Part shown: positions 49,729 to 60,190 of the stretch, piece by piece
Layout: every line of letters begins with the position of its first letter
How positions within the stretch are numbered: the first letter of the stretch is position 1
Source of the DNA: Methanobacteriota archaeon
GTDB lineage: Archaea > Thermoplasmatota > Poseidoniia > Poseidoniales > Thalassarchaeaceae
Reading direction: 5' to 3'
Assembly (NCBI GenBank): GCA_002730095.1
Contig: PBZE01000042.1
Span: forward strand, 623-64,622
DNA: 64,000 bases
The notes under the pieces: model-generated
Database searches by the model: none
What the model saw: the letters and a program-made list of their open reading frames with translations, nothing else
Told to the model about the DNA's origin: nothing
Translations under genes and position numbers: made by a program

Positions 49729-50670
49729 GTGAGAGAAGTGAAGACTCATCTGCTACTTTTACTAGTTGCTGCAGTGTGGGGTTCTACTTGGGCCGTTGGC
49801 AGATTCCTGAGCTATGGGCTGGATGATGCCAGGGCCAATATGGGGCCTGCTACATCTGCTTGGTTGAGATATGTCTTCGCTGTTGCAGGATTCCTAGCTT
49901 GGTGTTGGATTTACAGAAATATGGACGGTCCAAGAGTACTTCCCAAGGGAGAAAAGGCATGGAAATACACTTTCTGGATGGCTCTACTAGGGACAATGGG
50001 CTATCAACTCCTGTTCATGAATGGAATGAAGTGGACGGCTGCAGGTGATGCCTCCATGATCATCCCAATGAATCCAGTATTCACAGTACTTCTTGCAGCC
50101 CCACTACTGGGGCAGAGATTGAGTCCGAGAATGGTTCTGGGATTACTCATAGGTTTGATTGGTGTGGCCATAGTGATAGGTTGGAGTCCAAATACTGAGA
50201 TTCCATTTGAGCATCGATTGCTTGGTGGTGTTATGATAGGTCTTGCTGCTCTAATGTGGGCCGCGACCAGTAATCTGACCAAGATGGCGCTCCTAGATGG
50301 AACGATTGGAACCTCGCTAGAAATTGTTGTTTGGTATTCCATAATAGGTTGGGTTCTTCTAACTCCTTGGATGCTATTTGAGATCTGGCAATCTGGAATT
50401 CCAATTCCCAACGCAACCGAATGGATTTCTGTAGCATATTTGGGGATTATATCGACGGTCCTAACATATGCATGGTTCGCAAGGGGCATCGACAGGATTG
50501 GCGCTACCGCTGCATCATCCTATGTTTTTCTAGTTCCTGTGTTCGGAGTATTAGGTGGGTGGCTATTTCTGGATGAGAATATTGGGGCCTCGATGTTAGC
50601 AGGATTCTTTCTGGTCATCTTGGGGGTCAGAGAGGTTCAAAAACAAAGCGAGCTTATTACTAGCGGCTGA
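49729..50670 (+). CDS. DMT-superfamily (EamA-like) transporter
   Basis: It has about 10 TM helices in two EamA-like halves and an N-terminus (LLLVAAVWGSTWAVGR) typical of the family. Confidence 0.65.
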   Translation: MREVKTHLLLLLVAAVWGSTWAVGRFLSYGLDDARANMGPATSAWLRYVFAVAGFLAWCWIYRNMDGPRVLPKGEKAWKYTFWMALLGTMGYQLLFMNGMKWTAAGDASMIIPMNPVFTVLLAAPLLGQRLSPRMVLGLLIGLIGVAIVIGWSPNTEIPFEHRLLGGVMIGLAALMWAATSNLTKMALLDGTIGTSLEIVVWYSIIGWVLLTPWMLFEIWQSGIPIPNATEWISVAYLGIISTVLTYAWFARGIDRIGATAASSYVFLVPVFGVLGGWLFLDENIGASMLAGFFLVILGVREVQKQSELITSG

Positions 50671-50684
50671 ATTAAATTCGTATC

Positions 50685-51278
50685 TTGGTCCTCACGATTA
50701 AATATAGGGGGTCAGTCGCCCGCCAGAGAGGTGAGTATGTGGCACGCAAACCGGCGAAGATGTATCGTCAAGTAAAGGGGCAATCTTTCACTCGAAGAGA
50801 ATACACTGGAGGAGTTCCGAATAATCGGATCCTGAGGTACTTCATGGGCAACAGGAAGGCTGCTGAAGCTGGTGATTTCCCTGTTGTCATGGAGTTGACC
50901 TCGGACAATGCTTGTCAAATCAGAGACACTGCCTTAGAAGCCGCAAGACAAGTCGCAAATTCTACTATCAGAAATTCCGCCGGAGCTGATGGTTATGCCC
51001 TCAGAATCCATGTTTATCCCCACCAGATATTGCGTGAAAATAAACAGGCGACGGGTGCTGGTGCTGACCGTGTCTCTCAAGGGATGAGGCAGGCCTTTGG
51101 AAAAAATGTGGGAACTGCCGCTAGGGTTTTGAGAGGTCAGACAATAGTGTCAATTCATATGAATCCAGAAGATTACGATGCGGCTAGAGAGGCACTTCGT
51201 AAAGCGAGCTGCAAGTTCCCTACTCCTTGCTCCCATAAAGTAGTCAAAGGGGCCGAGCACTTGAAGGGCAAAGTCTGA
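50685..51278 (+). CDS. rpl10e: 50S ribosomal protein L10e (uL16)
   Basis: ARKPAKMYRQVKGQSFTRREYTGGVP is the canonical L10e N-terminus. The probable true start is GTG 50739 (MARKPAKMY). Confidence 0.9.
   Translation: MVLTIKYRGSVARQRGEYVARKPAKMYRQVKGQSFTRREYTGGVPNNRILRYFMGNRKAAEAGDFPVVMELTSDNACQIRDTALEAARQVANSTIRNSAGADGYALRIHVYPHQILRENKQATGAGADRVSQGMRQAFGKNVGTAARVLRGQTIVSIHMNPEDYDAAREALRKASCKFPTPCSHKVVKGAEHLKGKV
50698..50706 (+). promoter_or_regulatory. Candidate archaeal TATA box (TTAAATATA) for the L10e operon
   Basis: This AT-rich octamer-like element lies 33 nt upstream of the probable GTG start at 50739. GAGGTGA (50727-50733) lies 5 nt before that GTG as a possible SD-like element. Confidence 0.35.
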
Positions 51279-51280
51279 GG

Positions 51281-51868
51281 TTGATGGGCATGGAGCCCGG
51301 CGACCCCCTATCCATCCTCCATGATTCCTTGAGAGGAGCTCCGATTATTTGGAAGGGCGATTATCCATACTTTATCCATCCAATTTCAGATGGGATACCC
51401 AGAATGGATGCCAGTGTATTAAGAGCTGCTAGAGACCTAATAGTATCAATGGTAGACTGGTCCAAGATTGATCTAATTGTGAGTGTTGAGGCGATGGGGC
51501 TTCCACTACTCGCTGCAGTTGGAGAGGCCACAGGGAAACCAACAGTAGTCATTAGGAAGAGGTCGTATGGAATGAGAGGAGAAGTGAAGGTGGAAGTTTC
51601 CACCGGCTATTCAAAATCTACAACTTACATAAATGACATCAGTCCTGGAGAGAGAGTATTGATTGTAGATGATGTAATTTCCACAGGTGGAACTCTTGAG
51701 CCGATACTGGAAGCTATCGAGGGCATGGGGGCTAAGCTACAAGACATCATCATAGCGATAGAGAAGGGGAATGGACGGGAACGTCTATCCAAAGAACGAC
51801 CTAATTGGAGAATTAGGACTCTGGCAAGGATTGATATTATTGACGGAAAAGTGGAAATTATCGAGTGA
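51281..51868 (+). CDS. hpt: Purine phosphoribosyltransferase (archaeal hypoxanthine/guanine PRTase-like)
   Basis: It has the PRPP-binding motif VLIVDDVISTGGT. The overall pattern (SDGIPRMD, VSVEAMGLPLLAAVG, VIRKRSYG) matches the archaeal Hpt/Apt-like family. Substrate specificity has not been established. Confidence 0.6.
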   Translation: MMGMEPGDPLSILHDSLRGAPIIWKGDYPYFIHPISDGIPRMDASVLRAARDLIVSMVDWSKIDLIVSVEAMGLPLLAAVGEATGKPTVVIRKRSYGMRGEVKVEVSTGYSKSTTYINDISPGERVLIVDDVISTGGTLEPILEAIEGMGAKLQDIIIAIEKGNGRERLSKERPNWRIRTLARIDIIDGKVEIIE

Positions 51869-52981
51869 TTGCAGATGGATTTGGACAGGCATGATTTTCA
51901 ACTTGGCGAACTAGTCGAGAAGATAAAATCAAATGATCATAGATTGGTCGCACTTCAAGTTCCAGAGGGCCTTAAGATGCAAGCACTTGAAATGATGGAT
52001 CAAATCGAGGATGACTCCGGTGCGAAAGTGATACTTGCAGCTGATCCATGTTACGGTGCTTGTGACTTAGTGCATGATAAAATGAGGGCTATGGGCGTCG
52101 AATTGGTCGCTCACATGGGACATAGCCAAATGAACATAGACTCTGGAATGCCAACTCAATTCATCTCGGTTACATATGACGGAGAGCCAGAAATAGAGAG
52201 TATTTTGCCCATACTAAAATCTCACTTATCGATAGCTGAATCTAGAATAGGTGCTGACTTCTCAACAGAATTAAATGAAAAGGAAGCTCAAGATATTTTT
52301 TTGGATGCCGTGGGCAGGTTTTCTCCCCTTAAGTCGACGAAGCTGGGACTTGTCGGGTCCATTCAACATCTTCACCTACTGCCGAAATATAAGGCGATGC
52401 TCGAGAGAGCAGGTTTTGAGGTAGTGATACCCACGGGAGGAGATAGGCTAACCTTCCCTGGGCAGGTACTAGGGTGTAATTATTCAGGAGATAGTGATGA
52501 AATAGGTCATTACCTGTTCTTAGGATCTGGTGACTTCCATCCGATTGGACTTGTATTGCACACGGGAAAGCCACTGGCTCTCTTGGACCCCTACACTGGA
52601 GATTCTAGTGAAATGTCGTTTGGAAGAATTGAGAGGATCCTCAGACAGAGATTCGGACTGATTATGGAAATCGATAACGCTAAGACATTTGGGATCTTAA
52701 TTGGGGAGAAGCCGGGCCAAATGAGGAGGAACCTAGCCATAAGGATGAAGAGAATCCTCGAAAAGCATGGTCGTAAGGGATATTTATTGGCATTGGATCA
52801 CGTTAGTCCGGATCTGATAGACTTCTACCCGGTTGATGCTTTCGTAAATACTGCCTGTCCAAGAATAGCTATTGATGACTCGGTTAGGTATGACAAGCCC
52901 CTTGTAACCCCTTACGAGTTAGAAGTCGCCCTAGGTGAAAAGAAGTGGGAGAACGGATACCAATTTGATGAGATTCCTTGA
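51869..52981 (+). CDS. dph2: Diphthamide synthesis protein Dph2 (2-(3-amino-3-carboxypropyl)histidine synthase)
   Basis: It has VALQVPEGLK and conserved Cys contexts (DPCYGACD, NTACPRI). The size and layout are those of archaeal Dph2. Confidence 0.75.
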   Translation: MQMDLDRHDFQLGELVEKIKSNDHRLVALQVPEGLKMQALEMMDQIEDDSGAKVILAADPCYGACDLVHDKMRAMGVELVAHMGHSQMNIDSGMPTQFISVTYDGEPEIESILPILKSHLSIAESRIGADFSTELNEKEAQDIFLDAVGRFSPLKSTKLGLVGSIQHLHLLPKYKAMLERAGFEVVIPTGGDRLTFPGQVLGCNYSGDSDEIGHYLFLGSGDFHPIGLVLHTGKPLALLDPYTGDSSEMSFGRIERILRQRFGLIMEIDNAKTFGILIGEKPGQMRRNLAIRMKRILEKHGRKGYLLALDHVSPDLIDFYPVDAFVNTACPRIAIDDSVRYDKPLVTPYELEVALGEKKWENGYQFDEIP

Positions 52982-53035
52982 TTGGAATAAAACGCCCCTT
53001 GTGTAACAAGCATTTTTTGACTGTCCTTACTGAAT

Positions 53036-54244
53036 ATGTCTAAGAACGATGTTGGTAAGTGTATCCTGATGGCGGGGTACTTAGACCGGATTGGCGCCGG
53101 CAAGGTCCTTCTTGATAGGGGGCCTCTATCTTTCGATTGGACGCCCCCTCAATTGGTCGGCAGGGACAGGGAACTAGAATCACTGGCTTCAATGTTCATG
53201 GGGATTGGGAACGAGGGAGTCAGTGGCCGAGCGGTAGTTGTTGGTCACGTAGGTACCGGTAAGACAGTTCTAACCAGAAGATTTGGGGAAGATGTAATCA
53301 GAGAAATGGACGGCATTAGGAAGATGGTTCTTTCTCATGTCAATTGTAGGAATCACCCTTCAACTTCCCAGGTGCTGCAACAGATTGCTCTGTCGCTTGA
53401 CTCAAGGCATCCGGAAAGGGGGTTCAGCTCGGGCGAGATAATCCAGTCAATAAGGAGGAACATCCGATCTAGGGGACTTCACATGATACTCGTCTTGGAC
53501 GAGGTAGATGTCCTTGTTAGGAGAGACAGTAGTGATCTGATATACAAACTTCTACGAATAGATGAAGGCCAAGGCAATCAAGGAACGATTTCACTGATTC
53601 TGGTAAGTCAGGACCAATCTTTGATGGGAATGATGGAGCCGGCAATAATTTCTAGACTGGGAGAAAGTAATGTTTTGAGTCTGAAACCTTACGATTCTGA
53701 AGGCCTGGTTGGAATATCGAGGCAGCGATATGAAGCTTCATGCAAGCCAGGTTCTGTAGGCGAAGAAGTACTGGAAAAGATTGGCAGATTCGCCTCTGAG
53801 ACCGGGGATGCGAGACTGGCAATTGAACTCCTAGAGGCCGCTGTAAGAAGAGCAGAGATGGACGGAAGAGGCGAGGTAAATGTTAGTGACGTTATGCCTA
53901 GTACCATAAGGACAGCTTCCGTTGAGCCGAGTCAAGTAGATACCCTCAGTGTTCATGAGAAACTCATCCTACTGGGAATTTGTAGGAGATTACGAAAAGA
54001 AGAGGAAATTTCGAGTGGTGATGCTCGGAAGCTGTATGAACTCGTATGCGAGGAATTCGCGATTAAAACTAGGAGCTATACCACGTTCTGGAAGCATCTA
54101 AAATCGTTAGAAACTGAAGGTTTGCTAGAAGCCAGATCTACTAATACTTCTGTGGGAAGAGGCAGAACTACGTACATAACAATGACTAATACTTCCCCCG
54201 CTACAATAGGTAGCAGGATAGAGAAGGAGTTCATGAACCGCTGA
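53036..54244 (+). CDS. cdc6: ORC1-type DNA replication protein (Orc1/Cdc6)
   Basis: It has LVGRDRELESL, Walker A (GHVGTGKT), Walker B (LVLDEVD), sensor-2/lid (GDARLAIELLEAA) and a C-terminal winged helix (LKSLETEGLLEARS). Confidence 0.9.
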   Translation: MSKNDVGKCILMAGYLDRIGAGKVLLDRGPLSFDWTPPQLVGRDRELESLASMFMGIGNEGVSGRAVVVGHVGTGKTVLTRRFGEDVIREMDGIRKMVLSHVNCRNHPSTSQVLQQIALSLDSRHPERGFSSGEIIQSIRRNIRSRGLHMILVLDEVDVLVRRDSSDLIYKLLRIDEGQGNQGTISLILVSQDQSLMGMMEPAIISRLGESNVLSLKPYDSEGLVGISRQRYEASCKPGSVGEEVLEKIGRFASETGDARLAIELLEAAVRRAEMDGRGEVNVSDVMPSTIRTASVEPSQVDTLSVHEKLILLGICRRLRKEEEISSGDARKLYELVCEEFAIKTRSYTTFWKHLKSLETEGLLEARSTNTSVGRGRTTYITMTNTSPATIGSRIEKEFMNR

Positions 54245-54315
54245 TTGGCTATTCAGTTGGCTTCCGAACCGCTCTTATAGGGGCCTCATGTCGGGTTGCC
54301 GTCCGAGGAGTAAAT

Positions 54316-54810
54316 ATGGCAGGCGAGCAGTCATTCAAGGCAGTCGTTAACGACACTAATCCGAAGTATGGGGGCCGTGCTTTCTCCATAGAAATCACTG
54401 GGTCAAACTACAATCATTTCCTTGGTAAGAAGATAGGTGACTCAGTAGATGGAATGTTCGTCGGTGAGGGAGATCAATCACTTACGGGATATCGATTAGA
54501 AATCACCGGAGGATCAGACCTTACTGGAAGGCCAATGAGGCCAGACTTGGATGGAAGTGGCGTCAAATCAGTTCTAATTACCGCTGGAATAGGATACAAA
54601 GGAGATAAGAAGGTCAACAAGAAGGGCAAGACATACAGGTACAGGTATGACGGTCTGAGAAAGAGAAGGAATCTCCGTGGAAATGTAATAAGTCAAGAAA
54701 CTAGGCAAATCAACTTGAAGATAGTTGATGCTGGAAAGAGGCCACTTGGTGTGATTTTCGGCATAGAAGAGGAAGCTCCTGACAATCAGTCCTCTGGTGA
54801 AGAGGAGTGA
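54316..54810 (+). CDS. rps6e: 30S ribosomal protein S6e
   Basis: GYRLEITGGSDLTGRPMRPDL and the basic C-terminal region are typical of S6e. GGAGG lies 8 nt upstream of the ATG. Confidence 0.85.
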   Translation: MAGEQSFKAVVNDTNPKYGGRAFSIEITGSNYNHFLGKKIGDSVDGMFVGEGDQSLTGYRLEITGGSDLTGRPMRPDLDGSGVKSVLITAGIGYKGDKKVNKKGKTYRYRYDGLRKRRNLRGNVISQETRQINLKIVDAGKRPLGVIFGIEEEAPDNQSSGEEE

Positions 54811-54832
54811 AAATTGGGAGATGATCTAACTG

Positions 54833-56071
54833 GTGAATGATTTACCAAGTCAGCCCGAAGTAAATATTGGGATGGTCGGACACGTAGATCATGGGAAAAC
54901 CACACTTACCCAAGCACTATCTGGGACTTGGACAGATACACATTCCGAAGAGAGGAAACGTGGAATCAGTATCAAACTAGGATATGCTGATACAGCCTTC
55001 TACAAGAATAAGGAAGGGGAGTACTACGCTAGAGGAAAGAATCCGGAAGGGGGAGAAGATTCTGACGAGGACCTCCTGAGAGTTATCTCATTCGTTGATG
55101 CTCCTGGGCACGAGACTCTGATGGCGGTCATGATTTCTGGAGCGGCAATCATGGATGGTGCCTTGCTATTGGTTGCAGCAAACGAGACCTGCCCCCAGGC
55201 ACAAACAAGAGAACATCTTGCTGCTCTACAAATAGCGGGAATAGAGAACATAGTAGTAGTTCAAAATAAAGTTGACCTAGTCACTAAAGAAAGGGCCATT
55301 GAATCTTATAATGAGATATTATCATTCATCGATGGTACAATTGCCGAAGGATCCCCGATTGTTCCGGTTTCGGCCCATCATGATGTCAATCTGGATATTC
55401 TCATTAGGGCCATAGAGGATACTATACCGAGCCCTGAAATTGATTCTGACGAGAAGGGGCTGATGTATGTCGCGAGGTCCTTCGATGTCAATAGGCCTGG
55501 ATCAAGGCCTGACAAGCTCAGAGGAGGAATTGTTGGAGGCAGCATAGTGGAAGGCTCATTCAGTGTTGGAGATACCATATTAATAGCCCCGGGTCGTAGA
55601 ATTGTAGAGGGAAATAAAACAAGATGGGAGCCTCTAAAGACAACTATTGAGAATATTAAAGCTGGAGGATTAGACCTTGAAACTGCTCATGCGGGCGGAC
55701 TTTGCGGCATAGCCACTCCTATGGATCCAATGTCAACAAAGGCGGATGACCTATCTGGACAAGTGATGGCAAGAGACGGTGAGCTTCCCCCAGTATGGGA
55801 ATCTCTAGATCTGAATCTGCAACTTCTTGAAAAGATGGTTTCCGGAGGCGATGGTGATGAGGGAGTGGTAAAGCCCTTGCAGACTAATGAAATGTTGATG
55901 GTTAATTCGGCCACAGCGACAAGCGTGGGGACTGTTTCATCTTCTAAGAAGGGAGAGGCTCGATTAGCATTGAGGCTTCCAATTTGTGCCAAGAAGGGAA
56001 GTAGAATCACGTTATCCAGAAGAGTTGGCGCACGTTGGAGACTAATTGGCCATGGCACCATAAAGGGGTGA
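54833..56071 (+). CDS. eif2g: Translation initiation factor aIF2 subunit gamma
   Basis: It has the GTPase motifs GHVDHGKTT, DAPGHE and QNKVD, and the aIF2-gamma domain II/III pattern. Confidence 0.9.
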   Translation: MNDLPSQPEVNIGMVGHVDHGKTTLTQALSGTWTDTHSEERKRGISIKLGYADTAFYKNKEGEYYARGKNPEGGEDSDEDLLRVISFVDAPGHETLMAVMISGAAIMDGALLLVAANETCPQAQTREHLAALQIAGIENIVVVQNKVDLVTKERAIESYNEILSFIDGTIAEGSPIVPVSAHHDVNLDILIRAIEDTIPSPEIDSDEKGLMYVARSFDVNRPGSRPDKLRGGIVGGSIVEGSFSVGDTILIAPGRRIVEGNKTRWEPLKTTIENIKAGGLDLETAHAGGLCGIATPMDPMSTKADDLSGQVMARDGELPPVWESLDLNLQLLEKMVSGGDGDEGVVKPLQTNEMLMVNSATATSVGTVSSSKKGEARLALRLPICAKKGSRITLSRRVGARWRLIGHGTIKG

Positions 56072-56075
56072 TTGA

Positions 56076-56441
56076 ATGACGGGGATTCTCGTCGACACTT
56101 GTGGATGGGTCGCCTTAGTAAAATCTGGACTAAATCTAGATTCAGAGATGTCGAAGGTGATTGGTAAGCCGGAGCTTTTCGTCATACAAAGTGTATGGGA
56201 AGAGTTGGAGGACTTGGCCAAGGACAAAAGGGGGCTTCTCTTAGAATTGCTAAAATCTAGATGCATAATAATTGAAGATCCCATAGGGGTGAGCCATACG
56301 GATAAAATGTTGATTCAGCTCTCCAAGAGTAACAAATGGCCTGTTTTGACCGTTGACACTAGACTGAAAGAGGGACTCTCACGATCTGGATGCCAATATA
56401 TCGAAGTAGTCTCAGATAGAATGCTTAGATTAATTGACTAA
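56076..56441 (+). CDS. PIN-domain protein
   Basis: The acidic residues are spaced as in PIN domains: ILVDTCG (D7), WEELED and LTVDTRL. It lies directly after aIF2-gamma, a conserved archaeal neighbourhood. Confidence 0.55.
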   Translation: MTGILVDTCGWVALVKSGLNLDSEMSKVIGKPELFVIQSVWEELEDLAKDKRGLLLELLKSRCIIIEDPIGVSHTDKMLIQLSKSNKWPVLTVDTRLKEGLSRSGCQYIEVVSDRMLRLID

Positions 56442-56731
56442 GGCAGAGTGAATAGATCGTCGTCTCCTTGGCCATCCATGAATCCTATTTTTACTGCAGC
56501 ATCAATCCAAGCATGGGCATAGTTTATCGCTCCAAATGCCCTTACCAAATCTCCCTTTTGCATGAAATACCTAGCATCTGAAAAATAATCATCACACATC
56601 CTAAGCATCGAAGATAGCTTTTCTGAGTTCTCGGGTTTGAGTTTGATCGGCGTTGCCTTTTTTCTCGCCTCTTCGGTCAAGGACATGTATTTCTCAACTC
56701 TTTCAATGGTAACAATTATCTTGTCGTTCAA
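56438..56731 (-). CDS. DUF357-like small protein
   Basis: CDDYFSDARYFMQKGDLVRAFGAINYAHAWIDAAVKIG matches my recollection of the DUF357 helical-hairpin pattern (Y..DA..F...GD...A......YA.G..DA). Confidence 0.5.
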   Translation of the reverse strand: MNDKIIVTIERVEKYMSLTEEARKKATPIKLKPENSEKLSSMLRMCDDYFSDARYFMQKGDLVRAFGAINYAHAWIDAAVKIGFMDGQGDDDLFTLP

Positions 56732-56733
56732 AA

Positions 56734-58602
56734 CTATGCCTCCACTAATTTCTGGGCCGCCTCGGTGATTTTGAAGAGTCTTTTTCTACCCTGCTTTCTC
56801 ACAGATAGAAACCCCGATTTATGCAGTCCGTTGTATATTTGTGAAAGTCTGGGCCTGCCGACTTCCAATCTGGCCTGAAGTTCGGCGTCAGAGGGAGATA
56901 TCTCTCTCTTGGAAGCTGCTGAGATTACTAGGAGTTCGGCTTCATTGAGGGAATTTGATCGGTTCACATCAAAGGGTTTGTCTGGCTCCCATAAGTTAGC
57001 TGTTCGGAATGACTCTGAATTAGAGGGAGTAGTGTGATTCGAGGAATCTGAAATTTCAGCGATTGGAGAATCATCAATTCCAAAAAGGGAATCTTTTGCA
57101 ATCTCCTCTTCGAAGGCAGGCAGGGATGATTCCATTGAAGACTCTACAGACCAATGGGCAGAATTTGTAGATATTACACTAGATGGTGAAGACTCTGTGT
57201 TCCCCTCCACATTGTCATTTTTCTGTTTCGAGTCAAAATTCTTGTCACTTTGATCTCCCGAATCTGGCATGGGTCTTGGTTCAGTATTGGGCCATAAAGG
57301 TGCTACTTCCGATATTGATTCAATTAATGGGGTGCCATCTTCCGAATTGGGCTGTGAAATCTGAGCTACTCTAGATCTGCCCAATAGCCCCTCGAAGCCA
57401 CTTCCGGACTTGAACATCGGAGGCTCGGTTCCTGGTTGCATATACACAAAATCATCCAATGTGCCTTGTTCGGATTTTGGCCTTGTGTCAATCACTTCTT
57501 CGGTGATGCCCTCATTCTGGATTTCATCTTCATTATCCTGTAACCACAAATCACTTGGATCGTCGAGGGGATCACTTTGTTCTTCGATGTCCTCGTATAA
57601 TTCTGAGTCGACCAATAAATCATTAATTTCTTGGGTTTCATCGATTTCATCGATCGGTTCAAAACTTTCCTTCTCCCTCTGGGAAAATGAAAAATCCGCA
57701 TCTTCTTGGACATCAATATCCGAGAACATGGATCTTTCAAGGGGGGCTTCGACTTCTTCTTGAATTTCAATTGCCCCAGAGGGCTCTGCGATATTGTCGG
57801 ATATTTGCCAACGCATCAGCCTCTCCAATGTCCCCTGTGCACCTACATCCCTCCTCTCATCAGTCAGATCTCTGAGTAGTCTGATTACATCTCTAGGATT
57901 GCCCGAGGTAGATTCGTGAATTCTAGATAGAAGATTATCTTGAATGATCCATTTCTCCCTAGCCTTCCTGGATACGAGTCTGTTAGAAAGATCCTGTATC
58001 TGATCTTTTGTCAGATTTTCAATATGTTGAGGATCATCATACAACTGTGCTGTCTCCTCATCTATTGTAGAAAGCTGAGATGGAGTCAGGACAACTATCA
58101 CCAAAGCCCTAAGCCTTTGAAGGATCGGCGATATTGAGCTAAGCACAGGGGCTATTTCAACACTGGATGGATAGTCGAGCGAAATGACTGGTAGATTACC
58201 TGCAGACTCCTCTAAATTAGAAACCAAATCATCAATCATCTTCTGATTAGAACCGGAAGAGGCGAATCCACAGAAGTGTATTGAGAGCTCATGAATTATC
58301 GTATTTACTGGGTCTTTCATAGGCCAATATTGGCCGACGAAACTTCTTCTGGTCTGAGACGCCAGAGTTCTCACAATCGATGATCTGCCTGAGCCCCTCT
58401 CGCCTACCAATAGAAACATCCTCGGAGATTGGGAAACTATGTGCTCCCTCCAGGAAGAAATCAAGCGATCCCTCCCAACTAGGTATTCTGCCCTGCCACT
58501 TTCAATTGGCCTGAGGTCGAATGGATTGCCCCTAAGTAGAGGAAGTCCTAGTTTCTCTGCCACGCCCTCCCTCACAATCACCTTGAGAGTAGTAGAGTAC
58601 AT
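56734..58602 (-). CDS. Divergent Orc1/Cdc6-like AAA+ protein with degenerate Walker A, a long acidic insertion and a C-terminal winged helix
   Basis: The N-terminus has LVGRDRLISS and the P-loop GERGSGRSS (Arg at the Walker A Lys position, nt 58381-58404). It also has VISLDYP (weak Walker B) and GNPRDVIRLLRDL (like the GDARxAxxLL lid motif). aa ~270-520 are strongly acidic and low-complexity. The C-terminus (LSQIYNGLHKSGFLSVRKQGRKRLFKIT) is wHTH-like. Confidence 0.5.
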   Translation of the reverse strand: MYSTTLKVIVREGVAEKLGLPLLRGNPFDLRPIESGRAEYLVGRDRLISSWREHIVSQSPRMFLLVGERGSGRSSIVRTLASQTRRSFVGQYWPMKDPVNTIIHELSIHFCGFASSGSNQKMIDDLVSNLEESAGNLPVISLDYPSSVEIAPVLSSISPILQRLRALVIVVLTPSQLSTIDEETAQLYDDPQHIENLTKDQIQDLSNRLVSRKAREKWIIQDNLLSRIHESTSGNPRDVIRLLRDLTDERRDVGAQGTLERLMRWQISDNIAEPSGAIEIQEEVEAPLERSMFSDIDVQEDADFSFSQREKESFEPIDEIDETQEINDLLVDSELYEDIEEQSDPLDDPSDLWLQDNEDEIQNEGITEEVIDTRPKSEQGTLDDFVYMQPGTEPPMFKSGSGFEGLLGRSRVAQISQPNSEDGTPLIESISEVAPLWPNTEPRPMPDSGDQSDKNFDSKQKNDNVEGNTESSPSSVISTNSAHWSVESSMESSLPAFEEEIAKDSLFGIDDSPIAEISDSSNHTTPSNSESFRTANLWEPDKPFDVNRSNSLNEAELLVISAASKREISPSDAELQARLEVGRPRLSQIYNGLHKSGFLSVRKQGRKRLFKITEAAQKLVEA

Positions 58603-58780
58603 AACATTAACGTTTTATTACGGATTGAAATAACTAAATTAACGTATATTTACGCTTTTTCAATAATATTTTTTTTTATATATTAGACTAGTATTACGTT
58701 TTTTAATTTTATCATTAACGCTTTTCTAACGCTTTAATTATGCGTTAACAAAGCGTTAATGTCTTTATTAACGCTTTAAA
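58603..58780. repeat. Cluster of about 9-10 short TTAACGCTTT-like motifs in both orientations within an AT-rich spacer
   Basis: Direct copies or variants start at 58607 (TTAACGTTTT), 58639 (TTAACGTATA), 58650 (TTACGCTTTT), 58694 (TTACGTTTTT), 58715 (TTAACGCTTT), 58727 (TAACGCTTTA) and 58768 (TTAACGCTTT). Inverted copies lie at 58742-58748 (GCGTTAA) and 58751-58760 (AAGCGTTAAT). A central T/A tract spans 58661-58690. Confidence 0.7.
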
Positions 58781-58825
58781 TTAGTGATTATTGGGTTCTT
58801 TGGAGATATACTCGAAGTCGGTTAA

Positions 58826-60190
58826 GTGACTCTAAGAAGAAGAATTAAGCGAAATGTACAGAAGGGTGTTTTTTCTGAAGAGCATGATAACATGCCAGTT
58901 GATAGCAGTCGATTGAAAGGATTCTACAAACTATCTGTCCCAGAGAGAAGGAGCTTGCTCTCAGATATAGCAGGATTGGATGAGCGAATGGTAGAGGCGT
59001 GGGCCTCTAACGGAGAACTATCAGAGGAAGTCGCCGATAGAATGATTGAGAATGTGATTGGCACATATTCGCTCCCAATTGGTGTGGCGACCAATTTCAT
59101 AATCGATGGCGAGCATTATTTGATTCCCTTTGTTGTTGAAGAGGCGAGTGTTGTCGCTGCAGCTTCCAACATGGCGAAGAGGTGCCATTCGAAGGGCGGT
59201 TTTGTTTCCAACAATGATGAGCCTGTTATGATTGGTCAAATCCAAGTTGTAGGTTGTGATGATCCGGAGGCTGCCAGGCAAGCAATACTTTCATCTGAGA
59301 AAGAGTTGATTGAAGCATGTAATGACGTCGACCCTATTCTCGTGAAATTTGGTGGCGGATGCAGAGGAGTTGAGGCTCGTATTATTGAGACTGGGTCGGG
59401 ACCCATGGTCATAGTGCATATCCTAGTTGATTGCAGAGATGCTATGGGGGCGAATGCAGTAAATACCATGGCAGAAACCATAGCTCCAAGGATAGAGGAG
59501 CTGAGCTCTGGAACAGTTATCCTTAGGATAATCAGCAACCTTGCTGTACATCGGCTGGCAAAAGTTAGTGCCACATTCACTCCTGAAGAAATGTCGGATA
59601 CCGGATCGGATAGGGAAGGTGGTTCGAGAGTTATTGACGGTGTCATTCAAGCATATCATTTCGCTGCGGCGGACCCATTTAGGGCAACGACTCACAACAA
59701 GGGGATAATGAATGCGATTTCACCGATTGCTATAGCATGTGGACAGGATTGGAGAGCGATAGAGTCTGGCGCCCATTCCTACGCATCTTATGGGAGGGAA
59801 TATGGATCCATGACTCACTGGGAAGAAGACGACGATGGGAACTTAGTTGGCTCAATTGAGATACCAATGGCAGTAGGGCTCGTCGGAGGGGCCGTTAGGA
59901 TACATCCGGGAGCTCAGGCAAATGTGGCACTATTGGGACTTAGGACTGCTAACGATCTCGCCAAGGTTATGGCAGCGGCAGGGCTAGCTCAGAATCTTGG
60001 CGCATTGAGGGCTCTGGCAACTGTAGGCATTCAGGCCGGACATATGAAATTGCATCTCATGAATATGGTAGCCGCTTCAGGTGCCGAGGGCGAAGAGATT
60101 GAAGCTGTCGCGAAGATGGTCAGGGAAAGTGGGGAGCGAATCACCATGGCAGCAGTCGAAGAGGCCTTGACAATAGTTAGAGGCAACTAG
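58826..60190 (+). CDS. hmgA: Hydroxymethylglutaryl-CoA reductase (class II-like)
   Basis: EEASVVAAASN, CRDAMGANAVNTM, GQDWRA and VGGAVRIHP fit the class II HMGR pattern. The likely start is ATG 58892 (MPVDSSRLKGFYKLS). Confidence 0.85.
   Translation: MTLRRRIKRNVQKGVFSEEHDNMPVDSSRLKGFYKLSVPERRSLLSDIAGLDERMVEAWASNGELSEEVADRMIENVIGTYSLPIGVATNFIIDGEHYLIPFVVEEASVVAAASNMAKRCHSKGGFVSNNDEPVMIGQIQVVGCDDPEAARQAILSSEKELIEACNDVDPILVKFGGGCRGVEARIIETGSGPMVIVHILVDCRDAMGANAVNTMAETIAPRIEELSSGTVILRIISNLAVHRLAKVSATFTPEEMSDTGSDREGGSRVIDGVIQAYHFAAADPFRATTHNKGIMNAISPIAIACGQDWRAIESGAHSYASYGREYGSMTHWEEDDDGNLVGSIEIPMAVGLVGGAVRIHPGAQANVALLGLRTANDLAKVMAAAGLAQNLGALRALATVGIQAGHMKLHLMNMVAASGAEGEEIEAVAKMVRESGERITMAAVEEALTIVRGN

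What the first reader, a model, noticed from the sequence alone, without database searches (positions are those of the whole stretch)
56734..58602. Orc1/Cdc6-like paralogue with Walker A Lys-to-Arg and a ~250-aa acidic insertion between the AAA+ and winged-helix parts
The protein has the Orc1/Cdc6 order of elements: LVGRDR, then a P-loop, then a lid motif (GNPRDVIRLLRDL, compare GDARLAIELLEAA in the canonical copy at 53036), then a C-terminal wHTH. However, the P-loop reads GERGSGRSS, with Arg where the invariant Lys should be. Walker B is weak (VISLDYP). A very acidic low-complexity segment (aa ~270-520, nt ~57043-57795, rich in D/E/S/Q) separates the ATPase-like module from the DNA-binding module. 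This suggests an ATPase-impaired initiator-like or regulator-like protein, only 2.5 kb from the canonical orc1/cdc6 and directly abutting the repeat array. The acidic tract could mimic DNA or recruit basic partners, but I cannot tell which.
Basis: partly seen in the sequence, partly recalled or inferred. Interest (0 to 1): 0.6.

Follow-up and report, generated by a model that had tools for sequence, protein, structure and literature searches.

The report
Degenerate AAA+ DNA-binder with box array
Nearly every marine Group II archaeon (Poseidoniales) carries this undescribed protein: an ATPase-like domain without its catalytic residues, a long acidic floppy linker and a repressor-type DNA-binding domain. 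It always sits behind a conserved array of TTAACGC boxes that it most likely binds, and it resembles an Orc1/Cdc6 replication initiator without being one.

Summary
The ORF at 56734-58602 (-) encodes a confidently predicted AAA+ module (aa ~20-265), a 266-aa disordered linker with net charge -54, and a C-terminal winged helix.

The Walker A reads GxxGSG-R-[ST]S. Arg occupies the Lys position in 225 of 235 distinct family sequences, and Lys has returned at least 4 times independently. The Walker B Asp is invariant but never followed by Glu, the Arg-finger position is mostly hydrophobic, and the sensor-2 Arg is variable.

The family is single-copy in 95 of 96 Poseidoniales genomes and absent from sister families. 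It is not an Orc1/Cdc6 member:
- The Orc1/Cdc6 models never hit it.
- Every genome already has two canonical Orc1 genes.
- The winged helix is ArsR/SmtB-like, not Cdc6_C.

A rigidly phased TTAACGC/GCGTTAA array lies upstream of the gene in every locus examined. In this genome the phased pair occurs only there, and the array overlaps TATA-like elements of this gene and of divergent hmgA.

In this protein's clade the linker carries a PIP-box-like motif, QGTLDDFV, resembling the clamp-loader (RFC-L) tail KQFTLDSF.

Best reading: a nucleotide-binding but non-hydrolysing protein that assembles on its own operator array. An origin or centromere role is neither supported nor excluded.

The parts
56734..58602 (-). 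622-codon ORF with three parts: degenerate AAA+ module, acidic disordered linker and ArsR-like winged helix. The true start is probably an in-frame GTG 7-13 codons downstream of the annotated ATG.
57808..58545 (-). AAA+ base and lid (aa ~20-265), pLDDT about 90, with two helices between strands beta2 and beta3
   Evidence: model; Foldseek: MuB, Cdc6/Orc1, NB-ARC and RFC, E 2e-8 to 3e-6; hhalign vs Orc1 profile, probability 91.5%
58378..58404 (-). Walker A GERGSGRSS, with Arg73 in place of the canonical Lys
   Evidence: R in 225 and K in 10 of 235 distinct sequences; G67, G70, G72 and S75 invariant; at least 4 independent R-to-K changes.
58168..58194 (-). Walker B LPVISLDYP. Asp143 is invariant; the next residue is Y/A/V/F/L/H and never Glu.
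57856..57903 (-). Lid motif GNPRDVIRLLRDLTDE. G234, P236, R244 and D248 are near-invariant; the sensor-2-like Arg237 is present in only 131 of 235.
57007..57804 (-). Acidic disordered linker (aa 267-532), net charge -54, carrying conserved short motifs
57442..57468 (-). PIP-box-like motif QGTLDDFVY (aa 379-387)
   Evidence: Q-x-T-L-D-x-[FY]-[VILM] at one homologous site in 152 of 314 members, with no other PIP-pattern match in any linker; the only such match among G000 ORFs; the RFC-L tail is KQFTLDSF.
57370..57405 (-). Order-wide linker motif G-[F/L]-x-G-L-x-x-R-x-[R/K] (GSGFEGLLGRSR, aa 400-411), overlapping the only predicted helix of four or more residues in the linker (aa 403-415)
   Evidence: (R409 invariant)
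56737..56970 (-). ArsR/SmtB-like winged helix-turn-helix (aa ~545-622). The recognition helix is GRPRLSQIYNGL and the basic wing is SVRKQGRKRLF.
   Evidence: pLDDT 89.6; HlyU, SqrR, BigR, SmtB, CzrA; TM 0.6-0.68
58603..58825 (.). Divergent spacer with the phased TTAACGC/GCGTTAA box array. Full TAACG/CGTTA sites are at 58608, 58640, 58716, 58727, 58743, 58754 and 58769. Degenerate TTACG sites are at 58618, 58650 and 58694.
56438..56731 (-). DUF357 gene immediately downstream, probably co-transcribed. It is the conserved last gene of the ancestral operon.
58826..60190 (+). HMG-CoA reductase gene, divergently transcribed from the array in every locus where the upstream neighbour could be read (10 loci of 3 families)
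53036..54244 (+). Canonical Orc1/Cdc6, the lower-scoring of the two paralogues in the genome. It is a syntenic neighbour, not part of the unit.

Best explanation
This is a Poseidoniales-specific, single-copy DNA-binding protein of an undescribed family. It is not an Orc1/Cdc6 initiator.

Shown:
- It has three parts: an AAA+ module, an acidic disordered linker and an ArsR-type winged helix.
- The catalytic residues are degenerate across the family while the P-loop is strictly conserved.
- The gene is always paired with a phased TTAACGC box array, and that array is unique in the genome.

Inferred:
- The winged helix reads the TTAACGC half-sites immediately upstream of its own gene.
- The AAA+ module acts as a nucleotide-binding switch that does not hydrolyse. 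This rests on the preserved P-loop with Arg or Lys, the absence of a Walker B Glu, and the near-absence of an Arg finger. It would drive or stabilise oligomerisation on the 11-bp-phased sites.
- The resulting complex covers the TATA-like elements of its own operon (this gene plus DUF357). Its outermost box abuts the TATA-like element of the divergent HMG-CoA reductase gene. It would therefore autoregulate and probably co-regulate hmgA.
- The acidic linker (net charge -54) both tempers the basic winged helix electrostatically and displays short docking motifs. One motif, G-F-x-G-L-x-x-R-x-R, is found across the order. In this protein's clade there is also a PIP-box-like QGTLDDFV motif that could tie the complex to PCNA.
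For: Architecture:
- AlphaFold2 gives pLDDT about 90 for aa 20-265 and about 94 for aa 540-622. Almost all of aa 267-532 is below pLDDT 50.
- The N-domain is an AAA+ fold (Foldseek probability 1.00 to MuB, Cdc6/Orc1, NB-ARC proteins and RFC).
- The C-domain matches ArsR/SmtB and MarR repressors at TM 0.6-0.68, with RMSD about 2 Å for the best hits. Sequence matches to BigR, ArsR and HlyU agree.

Degenerate catalysis with a constrained P-loop:
- G67, G70, G72 and S75 are invariant, and position 73 is only ever R (225) or K (10).
- D143 is invariant and never followed by E.
- The Arg-finger position holds Arg in 21 of 235 sequences, and the sensor-2 position in 131 of 235.
- Lys has returned at least 4 times within Arg clades.

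Pairing of protein and array:
- All 10 loci from three families carry the array.
- 65 Thalassarchaeaceae loci have a mean of 6.8 TAACG sites in the 430 bp around the gene start, against 0.55 per kb elsewhere, with fixed spacings of 11, 15-16, 26-27, 38, 42 and 53 bp.
- The most distant member with readable upstream DNA (about 23% identity, Lys type) has the array too.
- In this genome it is the only cluster of this kind and the only place with 11-bp-phased pairs.
- Across 61 genomes of the order, nearly all phased pairs lie next to this gene (against the coordinates).

Promoter overlap: the gene-proximal boxes contain or flank TAAATATA and TAATAAAA. Box 1 abuts a TTTAAAT-like element on the hmgA side.

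Conservation: the gene is found in 40 of 41 relatives and 95 of 96 genomes of the order, and in none of the listed genomes of the sister families in the class.

PIP-like motif.
Against:
- A 266-aa flexible linker would not transmit AAA+ geometry to the winged helices. The strict 11-bp phasing may therefore reflect helix-helix contacts or a different protein.
- Other DNA binders are encoded nearby and could own the array: the second Orc1 here, and a MarR-like gene in other genera.
- Nine or more rigidly conserved sites is more elaborate than a usual operator.
- The PIP-like motif is limited to about half of the sampled family members, so it cannot be part of the core mechanism.
- Whether Arg73 still supports nucleotide binding is unknown.
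Confidence: 0.55

Rival explanations
1. The array and the protein form a chromosomal landmark rather than a mere operator. Candidates are a secondary replication origin, a centromere-like or condensin-loading site, or a PCNA-coupled switch. On this reading the protein is a lineage-specific, hydrolysis-dead origin- or site-recognition factor, working like DnaA on DnaA boxes or ParB on parS.
For: - The AAA+ fold is nearest to DNA-coating or DNA-encircling ATPases (MuB, Cdc6/Orc1, TnsC).
- There are two helices between beta2 and beta3, as in the aligned Orc1. The clamp-loader small subunit of this genome appears to have one.
- A single multi-site locus per genome is conserved over a whole order.
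- Synteny with smc-scpA-scpB on one side and the second Orc1 on the other is conserved.
- A PIP-like motif is present.
- In this genome an AT-rich stretch of about 70 bp separates the two box clusters.
- In the complete relative G026, sustained positive GC skew starts within about 10 kb of the array.
Against: - The clean switch points of the AT and MK disparity curves in G026 lie at about 97 kb and about 1217 kb. The locus is at 695 kb.
- In G079 the cumulative GC-skew minimum is 170-240 kb away from the locus.
- In the Poseidoniaceae-type relatives examined the whole spacer is only 139-195 bp, with no AT-rich unwinding element, yet must hold two promoters.
- A more conventional origin candidate, with ORB-like repeats flanking an A/T tract, lies upstream of the higher-scoring Orc1 on contig C32.
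- The winged helix is of repressor type.
Confidence: 0.15
2. The protein is a true, fast-evolving Orc1/Cdc6 paralogue, a third initiator, whose winged helix and lid have drifted beyond HMM recognition.
For: - The element order is collinear, and hhalign to the Orc1 profile gives probability 91.5%, E 8e-7.
- Cdc6/Orc1 structures are among the top Foldseek hits.
- 6 of 36 members weakly hit PF24389 ORC-CDC6-like.
- A canonical orc1 gene is a neighbour.
Against: - TIGR02928 finds two Orc1 genes in each of 41 genomes and never this gene, while RFC-L does get weak hits.
- There is no Cdc6_lid or Cdc6_C hit.
- The C-domain aligns to the Orc1 winged-helix domain with probability 1% and is structurally ArsR/SmtB-like.
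- The RFC subunits score as well as Orc1.
- phmmer of the N-domain against 1.84 billion representative proteins finds only 96 hits, with lengths and identities consistent with its own family.
Confidence: 0.05
3. The box array is the operator of a different protein, for example the second Orc1 or the MarR-like neighbour. This protein would act elsewhere, for example as a scaffold or chaperone using its acidic tail, and its adjacency to the array would merely be inherited synteny.
For: - Nothing links the winged helix to the boxes except adjacency.
- The other genes of the block (PIN, eIF2-gamma, S6e, Orc1, Dph2) are equally syntenic.
Against: - The array always lies directly at this gene's start. 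The Orc1 block, by contrast, changes orientation and distance.
- The MarR-like gene is missing from the equivalent position in this window, yet the array is unchanged.
- The recognition helix and wing are among the most conserved parts of the protein, in parallel with the boxes.
- The half-sites often form palindromes (TTAACGCGTTAA), which fits ArsR-type binding.
Confidence: 0.15

Closest known systems
Archaeal Orc1/Cdc6 initiators (TIGR02928; Pfam AAA_22 + Cdc6_lid + Cdc6_C; e.g. PDB 2qby, 2v1u)
   Same: - An N-terminal 'F..P..LVGR' lead-in, then an AAA+ base and lid, then a winged helix.
- Two helices between beta2 and beta3.
- Among the best structural and profile matches.
- Encoded near a repeat array and near a bona fide orc1.
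   Different: - No family HMM hit.
- ArsR-type rather than Cdc6_C winged helix.
- A 266-aa acidic linker is inserted between lid and winged helix.
- Walker A has Arg, there is no Walker B Glu, the Arg-finger position is mostly hydrophobic, and sensor 2 is variable.
- The cognate boxes are 7-bp TTAACGC half-sites, unlike ORB elements.
ArsR/SmtB-family repressors (HlyU, SqrR, BigR, SmtB, CzrA)
   Same: - The C-terminal roughly 80 residues have this fold (TM 0.6-0.68).
- The LSQ-type recognition helix is shared.
- The targets are short sites, often palindromic, overlapping promoters.
   Different: - It is a terminal domain of a 622-aa protein, not a stand-alone dimer of about 100 aa.
- It scores far below the family cut-off (14.9 vs 55 bits).
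- No metal- or sulfide-sensing residues were identified.
- It is joined to an AAA+ module.
DNA-coating AAA+ ATPases MuB and TnsC
   Same: MuB is the best Foldseek match (E 2e-8, TM 0.64-0.67 over the whole target) and TnsC also ranks in the top 25. Both are compact AAA+ base-plus-lid proteins that polymerise on DNA.
   Different: They are active ATPases with canonical motifs, bind DNA non-specifically through the AAA+ filament, belong to transposons, and have no acidic linker or winged helix.
Bacterial DnaA and its paralogue Hda (functional analogy, from general knowledge)
   Same: - An AAA+ module plus a helix-turn-helix domain.
- Arrays of short asymmetric boxes next to the protein's own gene, with autoregulation.
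- DnaA has a flexible linker domain.
- Hda is an AAA+ protein with a sliding-clamp-binding motif.
   Different: - Different domain order and no detectable sequence relationship beyond AAA+.
- DnaA needs ATP hydrolysis for its regulation.
- No evidence here of origin function.
AAA_16/STAND-type transcription regulators (MalT/LAL class) and archaeal Arch_ATPase proteins (e.g. Sso1545, PDB 2fna)
   Same: - The best Pfam matches are AAA_16, AAA_22 and nSTAND1.
- The lid carries a GxP-like 'G-N-P' motif.
- The logic is an NTPase followed by a DNA-binding domain.
- 2fna ranks 34th in Foldseek.
   Different: - No sensor repeats; a disordered acidic linker takes their place.
- The P-loop Lys is replaced by Arg.
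- Scores are below the Pfam cut-off for this protein (28.2 vs 32.6 bits).

Membership tests
Orc1/Cdc6 (archaeal initiators) | Whole-protein match to TIGR02928 / NCBIfam ORC1-type models above the cut-off | tested here: not met
   - no ORC1 model is listed for P0001, whereas the neighbouring Orc1 scores 217 bits.
- six-frame search of 41 genomes finds two Orc1 genes each and never this gene, even at E <= 1e-3.
Orc1/Cdc6 (archaeal initiators) | Cdc6-type lid (PF22703) and Cdc6_C winged helix (PF09079) | tested here: not met
   - no hit in any of 36 members.
- the C-domain profile against the Orc1 winged-helix domain gives probability 1.1%.
- the top 50 structural hits are all ArsR/SmtB or MarR proteins.
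Orc1/Cdc6 (archaeal initiators) | AAA+ core of the initiator type (base plus lid, extra helix between beta2 and beta3), closer to Orc1 than to other AAA+ clades | tested here: inconclusive
   - The fold and the two-helix insert are present.
- The Orc1 profile aligns over 218 columns.
- However, MuB, NB-ARC proteins and RFC score within two orders of magnitude, and the RFC-L and RFC-S sequences score at least as well as Orc1.
Orc1/Cdc6 (archaeal initiators) | Catalytic set: Walker A Lys, Walker B Asp-Glu, Arg finger, sensor-2 Arg | tested here: not met
   out of 235 distinct sequences: Arg 225 / Lys 10 at Walker A; Asp followed by Y/A/V/F/L/H; Arg at the finger position in 21; sensor-2 Arg in 131.
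Orc1/Cdc6 (archaeal initiators) | Binds origin recognition boxes and loads MCM at an origin | not testable with these tools
   Skew analyses of two relatives do not place an origin at the array. No replication data are available.
ArsR/SmtB winged-helix repressors | Winged helix-turn-helix fold of the family | tested here: met
   pLDDT 89.6; HlyU, SqrR, SmtB, CzrA and BigR at TM 0.6-0.68, probability 1.00.
ArsR/SmtB winged-helix repressors | Family HMM above the cut-off (NF033788 HTH_metalloreg) | tested here: not met
   14.9 bits against a cut-off of 55. BigR equivalog: 22.5 bits against 155.
Pfam AAA_16 (PF13191) | Match above the gathering score | tested here: inconclusive
   This protein scores 28.2 bits against a cut-off of 32.6. 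34 of 36 members match at E <= 0.01, and many relatives are pre-annotated as PF13191.
PIP-box (PCNA-interacting peptide) proteins | Motif Q-x-x-[LIM]-x-x-[FY]-[FYWLVI] in a disordered region, conserved among orthologues | tested here: met
   - QGTLDDFV at aa 379-386 in the disordered linker.
- The same site is conserved in 152 of 314 members, and it is the only Q.T[LIM]D.[FY]x match among the genome's ORFs.
- It resembles the RFC-L tail KQFTLDSF.
PIP-box (PCNA-interacting peptide) proteins | Physical binding to PCNA | not testable with these tools
   No complex prediction or assay was available.

The most novel reading that the evidence does not exclude
The TTAACGC array and this protein form a Poseidoniales-specific chromosomal landmark coupled to replication. 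A hydrolysis-dead, Orc-shaped AAA+ protein would assemble on a unique phased site between smc-scpAB and the second orc1. It would then use its acidic linker motifs, including a PIP box in Thalassarchaeum-type lineages, to talk to PCNA or other replisome or condensin parts. That would make it a secondary origin, a centromere or condensin-loading site, or an Hda-like replication-sensing switch.
Probability: 0.12. Interest if true: 0.85.

Novelty: new variant of a known kind. Interest (0 to 1): 0.55.

Why it matters
Poseidoniales are among the most abundant archaea in the surface ocean and have never been cultured. This protein is one of their few clade-defining, near-universal genes with no assigned function.

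It offers three things:
- A natural example of an AAA+ module kept under strong selection although its hydrolytic residues are gone, with Arg and Lys swapping repeatedly at the P-loop.
- A eukaryote-style long acidic disordered linker carrying conserved docking motifs.
- A predicted protein-DNA pair that can be tested directly in vitro without cultivating the organism.

If the array controls hmgA, this would be a candidate regulator of the committed step of isoprenoid lipid synthesis in this group. If the PIP-like motif is real, DNA replication would be linked to that switch.

Tried and rejected
1. Origin test by nucleotide skew. I rebuilt the complete relative G026 from 120 fetched pieces. 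The AT and MK disparity curves switch at about 97 kb and about 1217 kb, not at the locus (695 kb) and not at either orc1 gene. GC skew has a broad flat minimum at 500-690 kb and rises from about 690 kb, which is suggestive only. In G079 (half sampled) the minimum is 170-240 kb away. Result: inconclusive, leaning against an origin.

3. Search for compact relatives without the linker, using a linker-deleted profile. The 120 proteins shown (length 516-616 aa) all look like members of the same family. Earlier notes claim such compact AAA_16/ExeA-like relatives exist; I could not check this.

4. Genome-wide avoidance of the box. TTAACGC is at its Markov expectation (ratio 0.99). Its rarity comes from general TTAA depletion, so there is no evidence of selection against off-target sites. 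The reversed-pattern control is confounded by dinucleotide bias.

5. 'In-frame TAG' in one genus. This is an artefact: the stop lies upstream of the real start.

6. Is Orc1 the nearest paralogue in the genome? No. An HMM search ranks Orc1 about 17th (E 0.8), and single-sequence hhalign puts RFC-L and RFC-S at or above Orc1.

7. Literature. Searches on Marine Group II with Cdc6/origin, on Poseidoniales with AAA+/winged helix, and on DUF357 found no description of this family. Raymann et al. 2014 (PMC3914693) discuss only canonical Cdc6/Orc1 copies.
Full report
**The observation**

The minus-strand ORF 56734-58602 is open for 622 codons.
- LVGRDR at aa 41-46
- GERGSGRSS at aa 67-75, with Arg73 where the Walker A Lys belongs
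- LPVISLDYP at aa 137-145
- GNPRDVIRLLRDL from aa 234
- a C-terminal helix-turn-helix

Residues 267-532 have 25% Asp+Glu, 5% Lys+Arg and net charge -54.

The window comes from a Poseidoniales (Marine Group II) genome. Related loci carry titles such as Candidatus Thalassarchaeum and Thalassarchaeaceae.

**Structure**

An AlphaFold2 model built on 36 diverse homologues gives:
- a confident N-terminal domain (aa 20-265, pLDDT about 90);
- a segment, aa 267-532, that is almost entirely below pLDDT 50, with one helix of four or more residues at aa 403-415;
- a confident C-terminal domain (aa 540-622, pLDDT about 94).

Foldseek against the PDB shows that the N-domain is an AAA+ base plus lid. The best hits are MuB (2e-8), Drosophila and human Cdc6, Sulfolobus Orc1-1 and Orc1-3, Aeropyrum ORC1, plant NB-ARC domains, RFC subunits, RuvB and TnsC. 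All fall within about two orders of magnitude, so the fold alone does not single out Orc1/Cdc6.

The model has two helices between beta2 and beta3 (aa 98-111 and 119-132). The aligned Orc1 has the same arrangement. The RFC small subunit of the same genome appears to have only one helix there.

The C-domain was modelled separately (pLDDT 89.6). It matches ArsR/SmtB and MarR repressors (HlyU, SqrR, SmtB, CzrA, BigR, NolR) at TM 0.6-0.68. No Orc1/Cdc6 winged helix appears among the top 50.

**Sequence-family tests**

- Pfam gives only sub-threshold AAA_16 (28.2 vs 32.6 bits), AAA_22 and nSTAND1. There is no Cdc6_lid or Cdc6_C hit. The neighbouring Orc1 hits all three Orc1 domains.
- Of 36 family members, 34 hit AAA_16, 24 AAA_22, 10 nSTAND1 and 6 the ORC-CDC6-like family, all weakly.
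- NCBIfam gives weak BigR/ArsR matches for the C-terminus and no ORC1 model.
- A six-frame search with TIGR02928 in 41 genomes finds two canonical Orc1 genes per genome. In this genome they are on contig C32 (373 bits) and at window 53036 (217 bits). This gene is never found, although RFC-L is weakly hit.
- Profile-profile comparison of the N-domain with the local Orc1 family gives probability 91.5% and E 8e-7 over 218 collinear columns.
- Against single sequences of the same genome, RFC-L (score 44.9, 195 columns) and RFC-S (36.1) do at least as well as Orc1 (33.7).
- The C-domain aligns to the Orc1 winged-helix domain with probability 1%.
- phmmer of the N-domain against 1.84 billion representative proteins returns only 96 hits, apparently all from this family.

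The protein is therefore an AAA+ protein of the initiator / clamp-loader / STAND neighbourhood fused to an ArsR-like domain. It is not a member of the Orc1/Cdc6 family.

**Distribution and synteny**

The gene is single-copy in 40 of 41 relatives (18 of 18 high-quality genomes). In a wider draw it is present in 95 of 96 genomes of the order. It is absent from all listed genomes of the other families in the class.

Public names for it are 'hypothetical protein', 'ATP-binding protein' or 'MarR family regulator'.

Gene order is conserved across three families:
- smc-scpA-scpB
- HMG-CoA reductase, divergently transcribed
- a 140-350 bp spacer
- this gene
- a 346-aa protein without Pfam hits
- DUF357
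- PIN_9, eIF2-gamma, S6e, the second Orc1 and Dph2

The part from this gene onward is also kept in the most distant members, at 21-23% identity. In the genus of the window the 346-aa gene is gone (no tblastn hit in the genome). DUF357 follows directly at 56438-56731.

**Catalytic motifs across the family**

Counts are over 235 distinct N-domains.
- Walker A: G67, G70, G72 and S75 are invariant. Position 73 is Arg in 225 and Lys in 10.
- Walker B: Asp143 is invariant. The next residue is Y, A, V, F, L or H, never Glu.
- Arg finger: the position aligned to the Orc1 finger holds Arg in only 21.
- Sensor 2: Arg237 is present in 131.

On a maximum-likelihood tree of 63 representatives, the Lys-bearing members sit in at least four separate places inside Arg-bearing clades. 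Arg is therefore the likely ancestral state, and Lys returned repeatedly.

A P-loop kept this strictly, with only Arg or Lys allowed, argues that it still binds phosphate or nucleotide. The missing Glu and the near-absent Arg finger argue against hydrolysis. This is an inference, consistent with the known behaviour of Walker A Lys-to-Arg mutants.

**The linker**

The linker is poorly conserved overall but carries islands. One motif, G-[F/L]-x-G-L-x-x-R-x-[R/K] (aa 400-411 here), is found across the order and overlaps the linker's one predicted helix. Trp-containing acidic motifs are also conserved.

In this protein's clade there is in addition QGTLDDFV(Y) at aa 379-387. The pattern Q-x-T-L-D-x-[FY]-[VILM] occupies the same site in 152 of 314 members. 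No other PIP-pattern match occurs in any linker.

In this genome it is the only match to that pattern among all ORFs of 100 aa or more. The C-terminal tails of RFC-L (KQFTLDSF), a putative PolB (QKSLLDF) and a third protein (QSTLGEF) show the local PIP-box style. This is a credible PCNA-interacting peptide, but it is lineage-restricted and untested.

**The box array**

The 223-bp spacer 58603-58825 (25% G+C) carries TAACG/CGTTA sites at 58608, 58640, 58716, 58727, 58743, 58754 and 58769, plus degenerate TTACG copies.

The same array precedes the gene everywhere I looked:
- in all 10 loci from three families, whatever the G+C content (0.25-0.53);
- in 65 Thalassarchaeaceae loci, with 6.8 sites in the 430 bp around the gene start against 0.55 per kb elsewhere, and fixed spacings of 11, 15-16, 26-27, 38, 42 and 53 bp;
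- in the most distant Lys-type member with readable upstream DNA.

In this genome it is the only cluster with four or more sites per 200 bp, and the only place with 11-bp-phased pairs. Across 61 genomes of the order, nearly all phased pairs lie next to this gene.

An alignment of spacers shows five invariant central boxes. It also shows two gene-proximal composite boxes, GCGTAAATATACGTTAAT and CCGTAATAAAACGTTAAT, which contain TATA-like sequences. The outermost box abuts a TTTAAAT-like element facing hmgA.

The annotated ATG at 58602 lies inside the conserved element AATGTTATGTACTC. Relatives have no ATG at that position. The real start is probably an in-frame GTG 7-13 codons downstream, behind AGGTGA or GGAGG-like sequences.

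**Origin or operator?**

Skew analysis does not support an origin at the array.
- In the complete relative G026 the AT and MK disparity curves switch at about 97 kb and about 1217 kb. The locus is at 695 kb. GC skew has a broad flat minimum at 500-690 kb.
- In G079 the minimum is 170-240 kb away from the locus.

A conventional origin candidate lies elsewhere. The 398-bp, 36% G+C region upstream of the higher-scoring Orc1 on contig C32 holds two copies of AAAGTGT[GA][GA]AAA flanking an A/T tract. These are the only two copies in the genome.

The spacers of the Poseidoniaceae-type relatives examined are only 139-195 bp, without an AT-rich stretch.

I therefore favour an operator-like nucleoprotein complex controlling this operon and probably hmgA. 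The landmark reading (origin, centromere or PCNA-coupled switch) stays as a minority possibility.

**Relation to earlier notes**

After forming this reading I consulted the scan's notes. Several earlier agents, working on orthologues in other genomes, reached the same general conclusion. These are AI notes and not independent evidence.

As far as those short excerpts show, this report adds:
- the phylogeny of the Arg/Lys swap;
- the PIP-like motif and its match to the local RFC-L tail;
- the order-wide linker motif;
- the count of two canonical Orc1 genes per genome;
- the C32 origin candidate;
- the whole-genome disparity curves;
- the correction to the start codon.

**Limits**

- DNA binding, nucleotide binding, oligomerisation and PCNA binding are all inferred.

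Noticed in passing
outside the window: genome contig C32:3553-3950 (upstream of the higher-scoring Orc1 at C32:3951-5189): A 398-bp, 36% G+C spacer holds the only two genomic copies of AAAGTGT[GA][GA]AAA, 76 bp apart, flanking an A/T tract. This is a conventional ORB-like origin candidate beside the Orc1-1-type gene.
   Followed up: partly
window 58563-58602: The annotated ATG start overlaps a conserved DNA element (AATGTTATGTACTC) that has no ATG in relatives. In-frame GTG codons at 58581, 58575 and 58563, behind AGGTGA or GGAGG-like sequences, are likelier starts. The first 7-13 residues are probably not translated.
   Followed up: partly
whole genome (G000): Several palindromes are strongly under-represented against Markov expectation. 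The tetranucleotide TTAA has 1572 occurrences against 9258 expected (ratio 0.17). GTTAAC is at 0.25 and ACGCGT at 0.23. This looks like restriction-site avoidance.
   Followed up: no
window 56438-56731 (-) and loci L013-L021, L157, L158: The ancestral operon is this gene, a 346-aa protein with no Pfam or PDB sequence match, and DUF357. The 346-aa gene is lost in the genus of the window and gives no tblastn hit anywhere in the genome. DUF357 is retained.
   Followed up: partly
window 58767-58826: The outermost box (ATTAACGCTTT) is followed at once, in the hmgA direction, by a TTTAAAT-like TATA element. That element is conserved as A/T-rich in relatives, so HMG-CoA reductase may be under control of the array.
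   Followed up: partly
relative genome G026 (complete, 2.06 Mb): The AT-skew and MK disparity curves form a clean V with turning points near 97 kb and 1217 kb. Neither coincides with the two orc1 genes (701 kb and 1830 kb), so the replication architecture of this group is unclear from composition alone.
   Followed up: partly
window 49729-56441: The block EamA transporter, ribosomal L10e, phosphoribosyltransferase, Dph2, Orc1, S6e, eIF2-gamma, PIN_9 is present. The part from Dph2 to PIN_9 is syntenic across the order, although its orientation relative to the AAA+/winged-helix gene flips between lineages.
   Followed up: no
outside the window: genome contigs C43:13810-15405, C10:30874-33504, C25:12546-14657: Three large proteins end in seven-residue PIP boxes that terminate at the Phe. 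They are RFC-L (KQFTLDSF), a putative PolB (QKSLLDF) and a 704-aa protein (QSTLGEF). Together they define the local PCNA-binding style.
   Followed up: no
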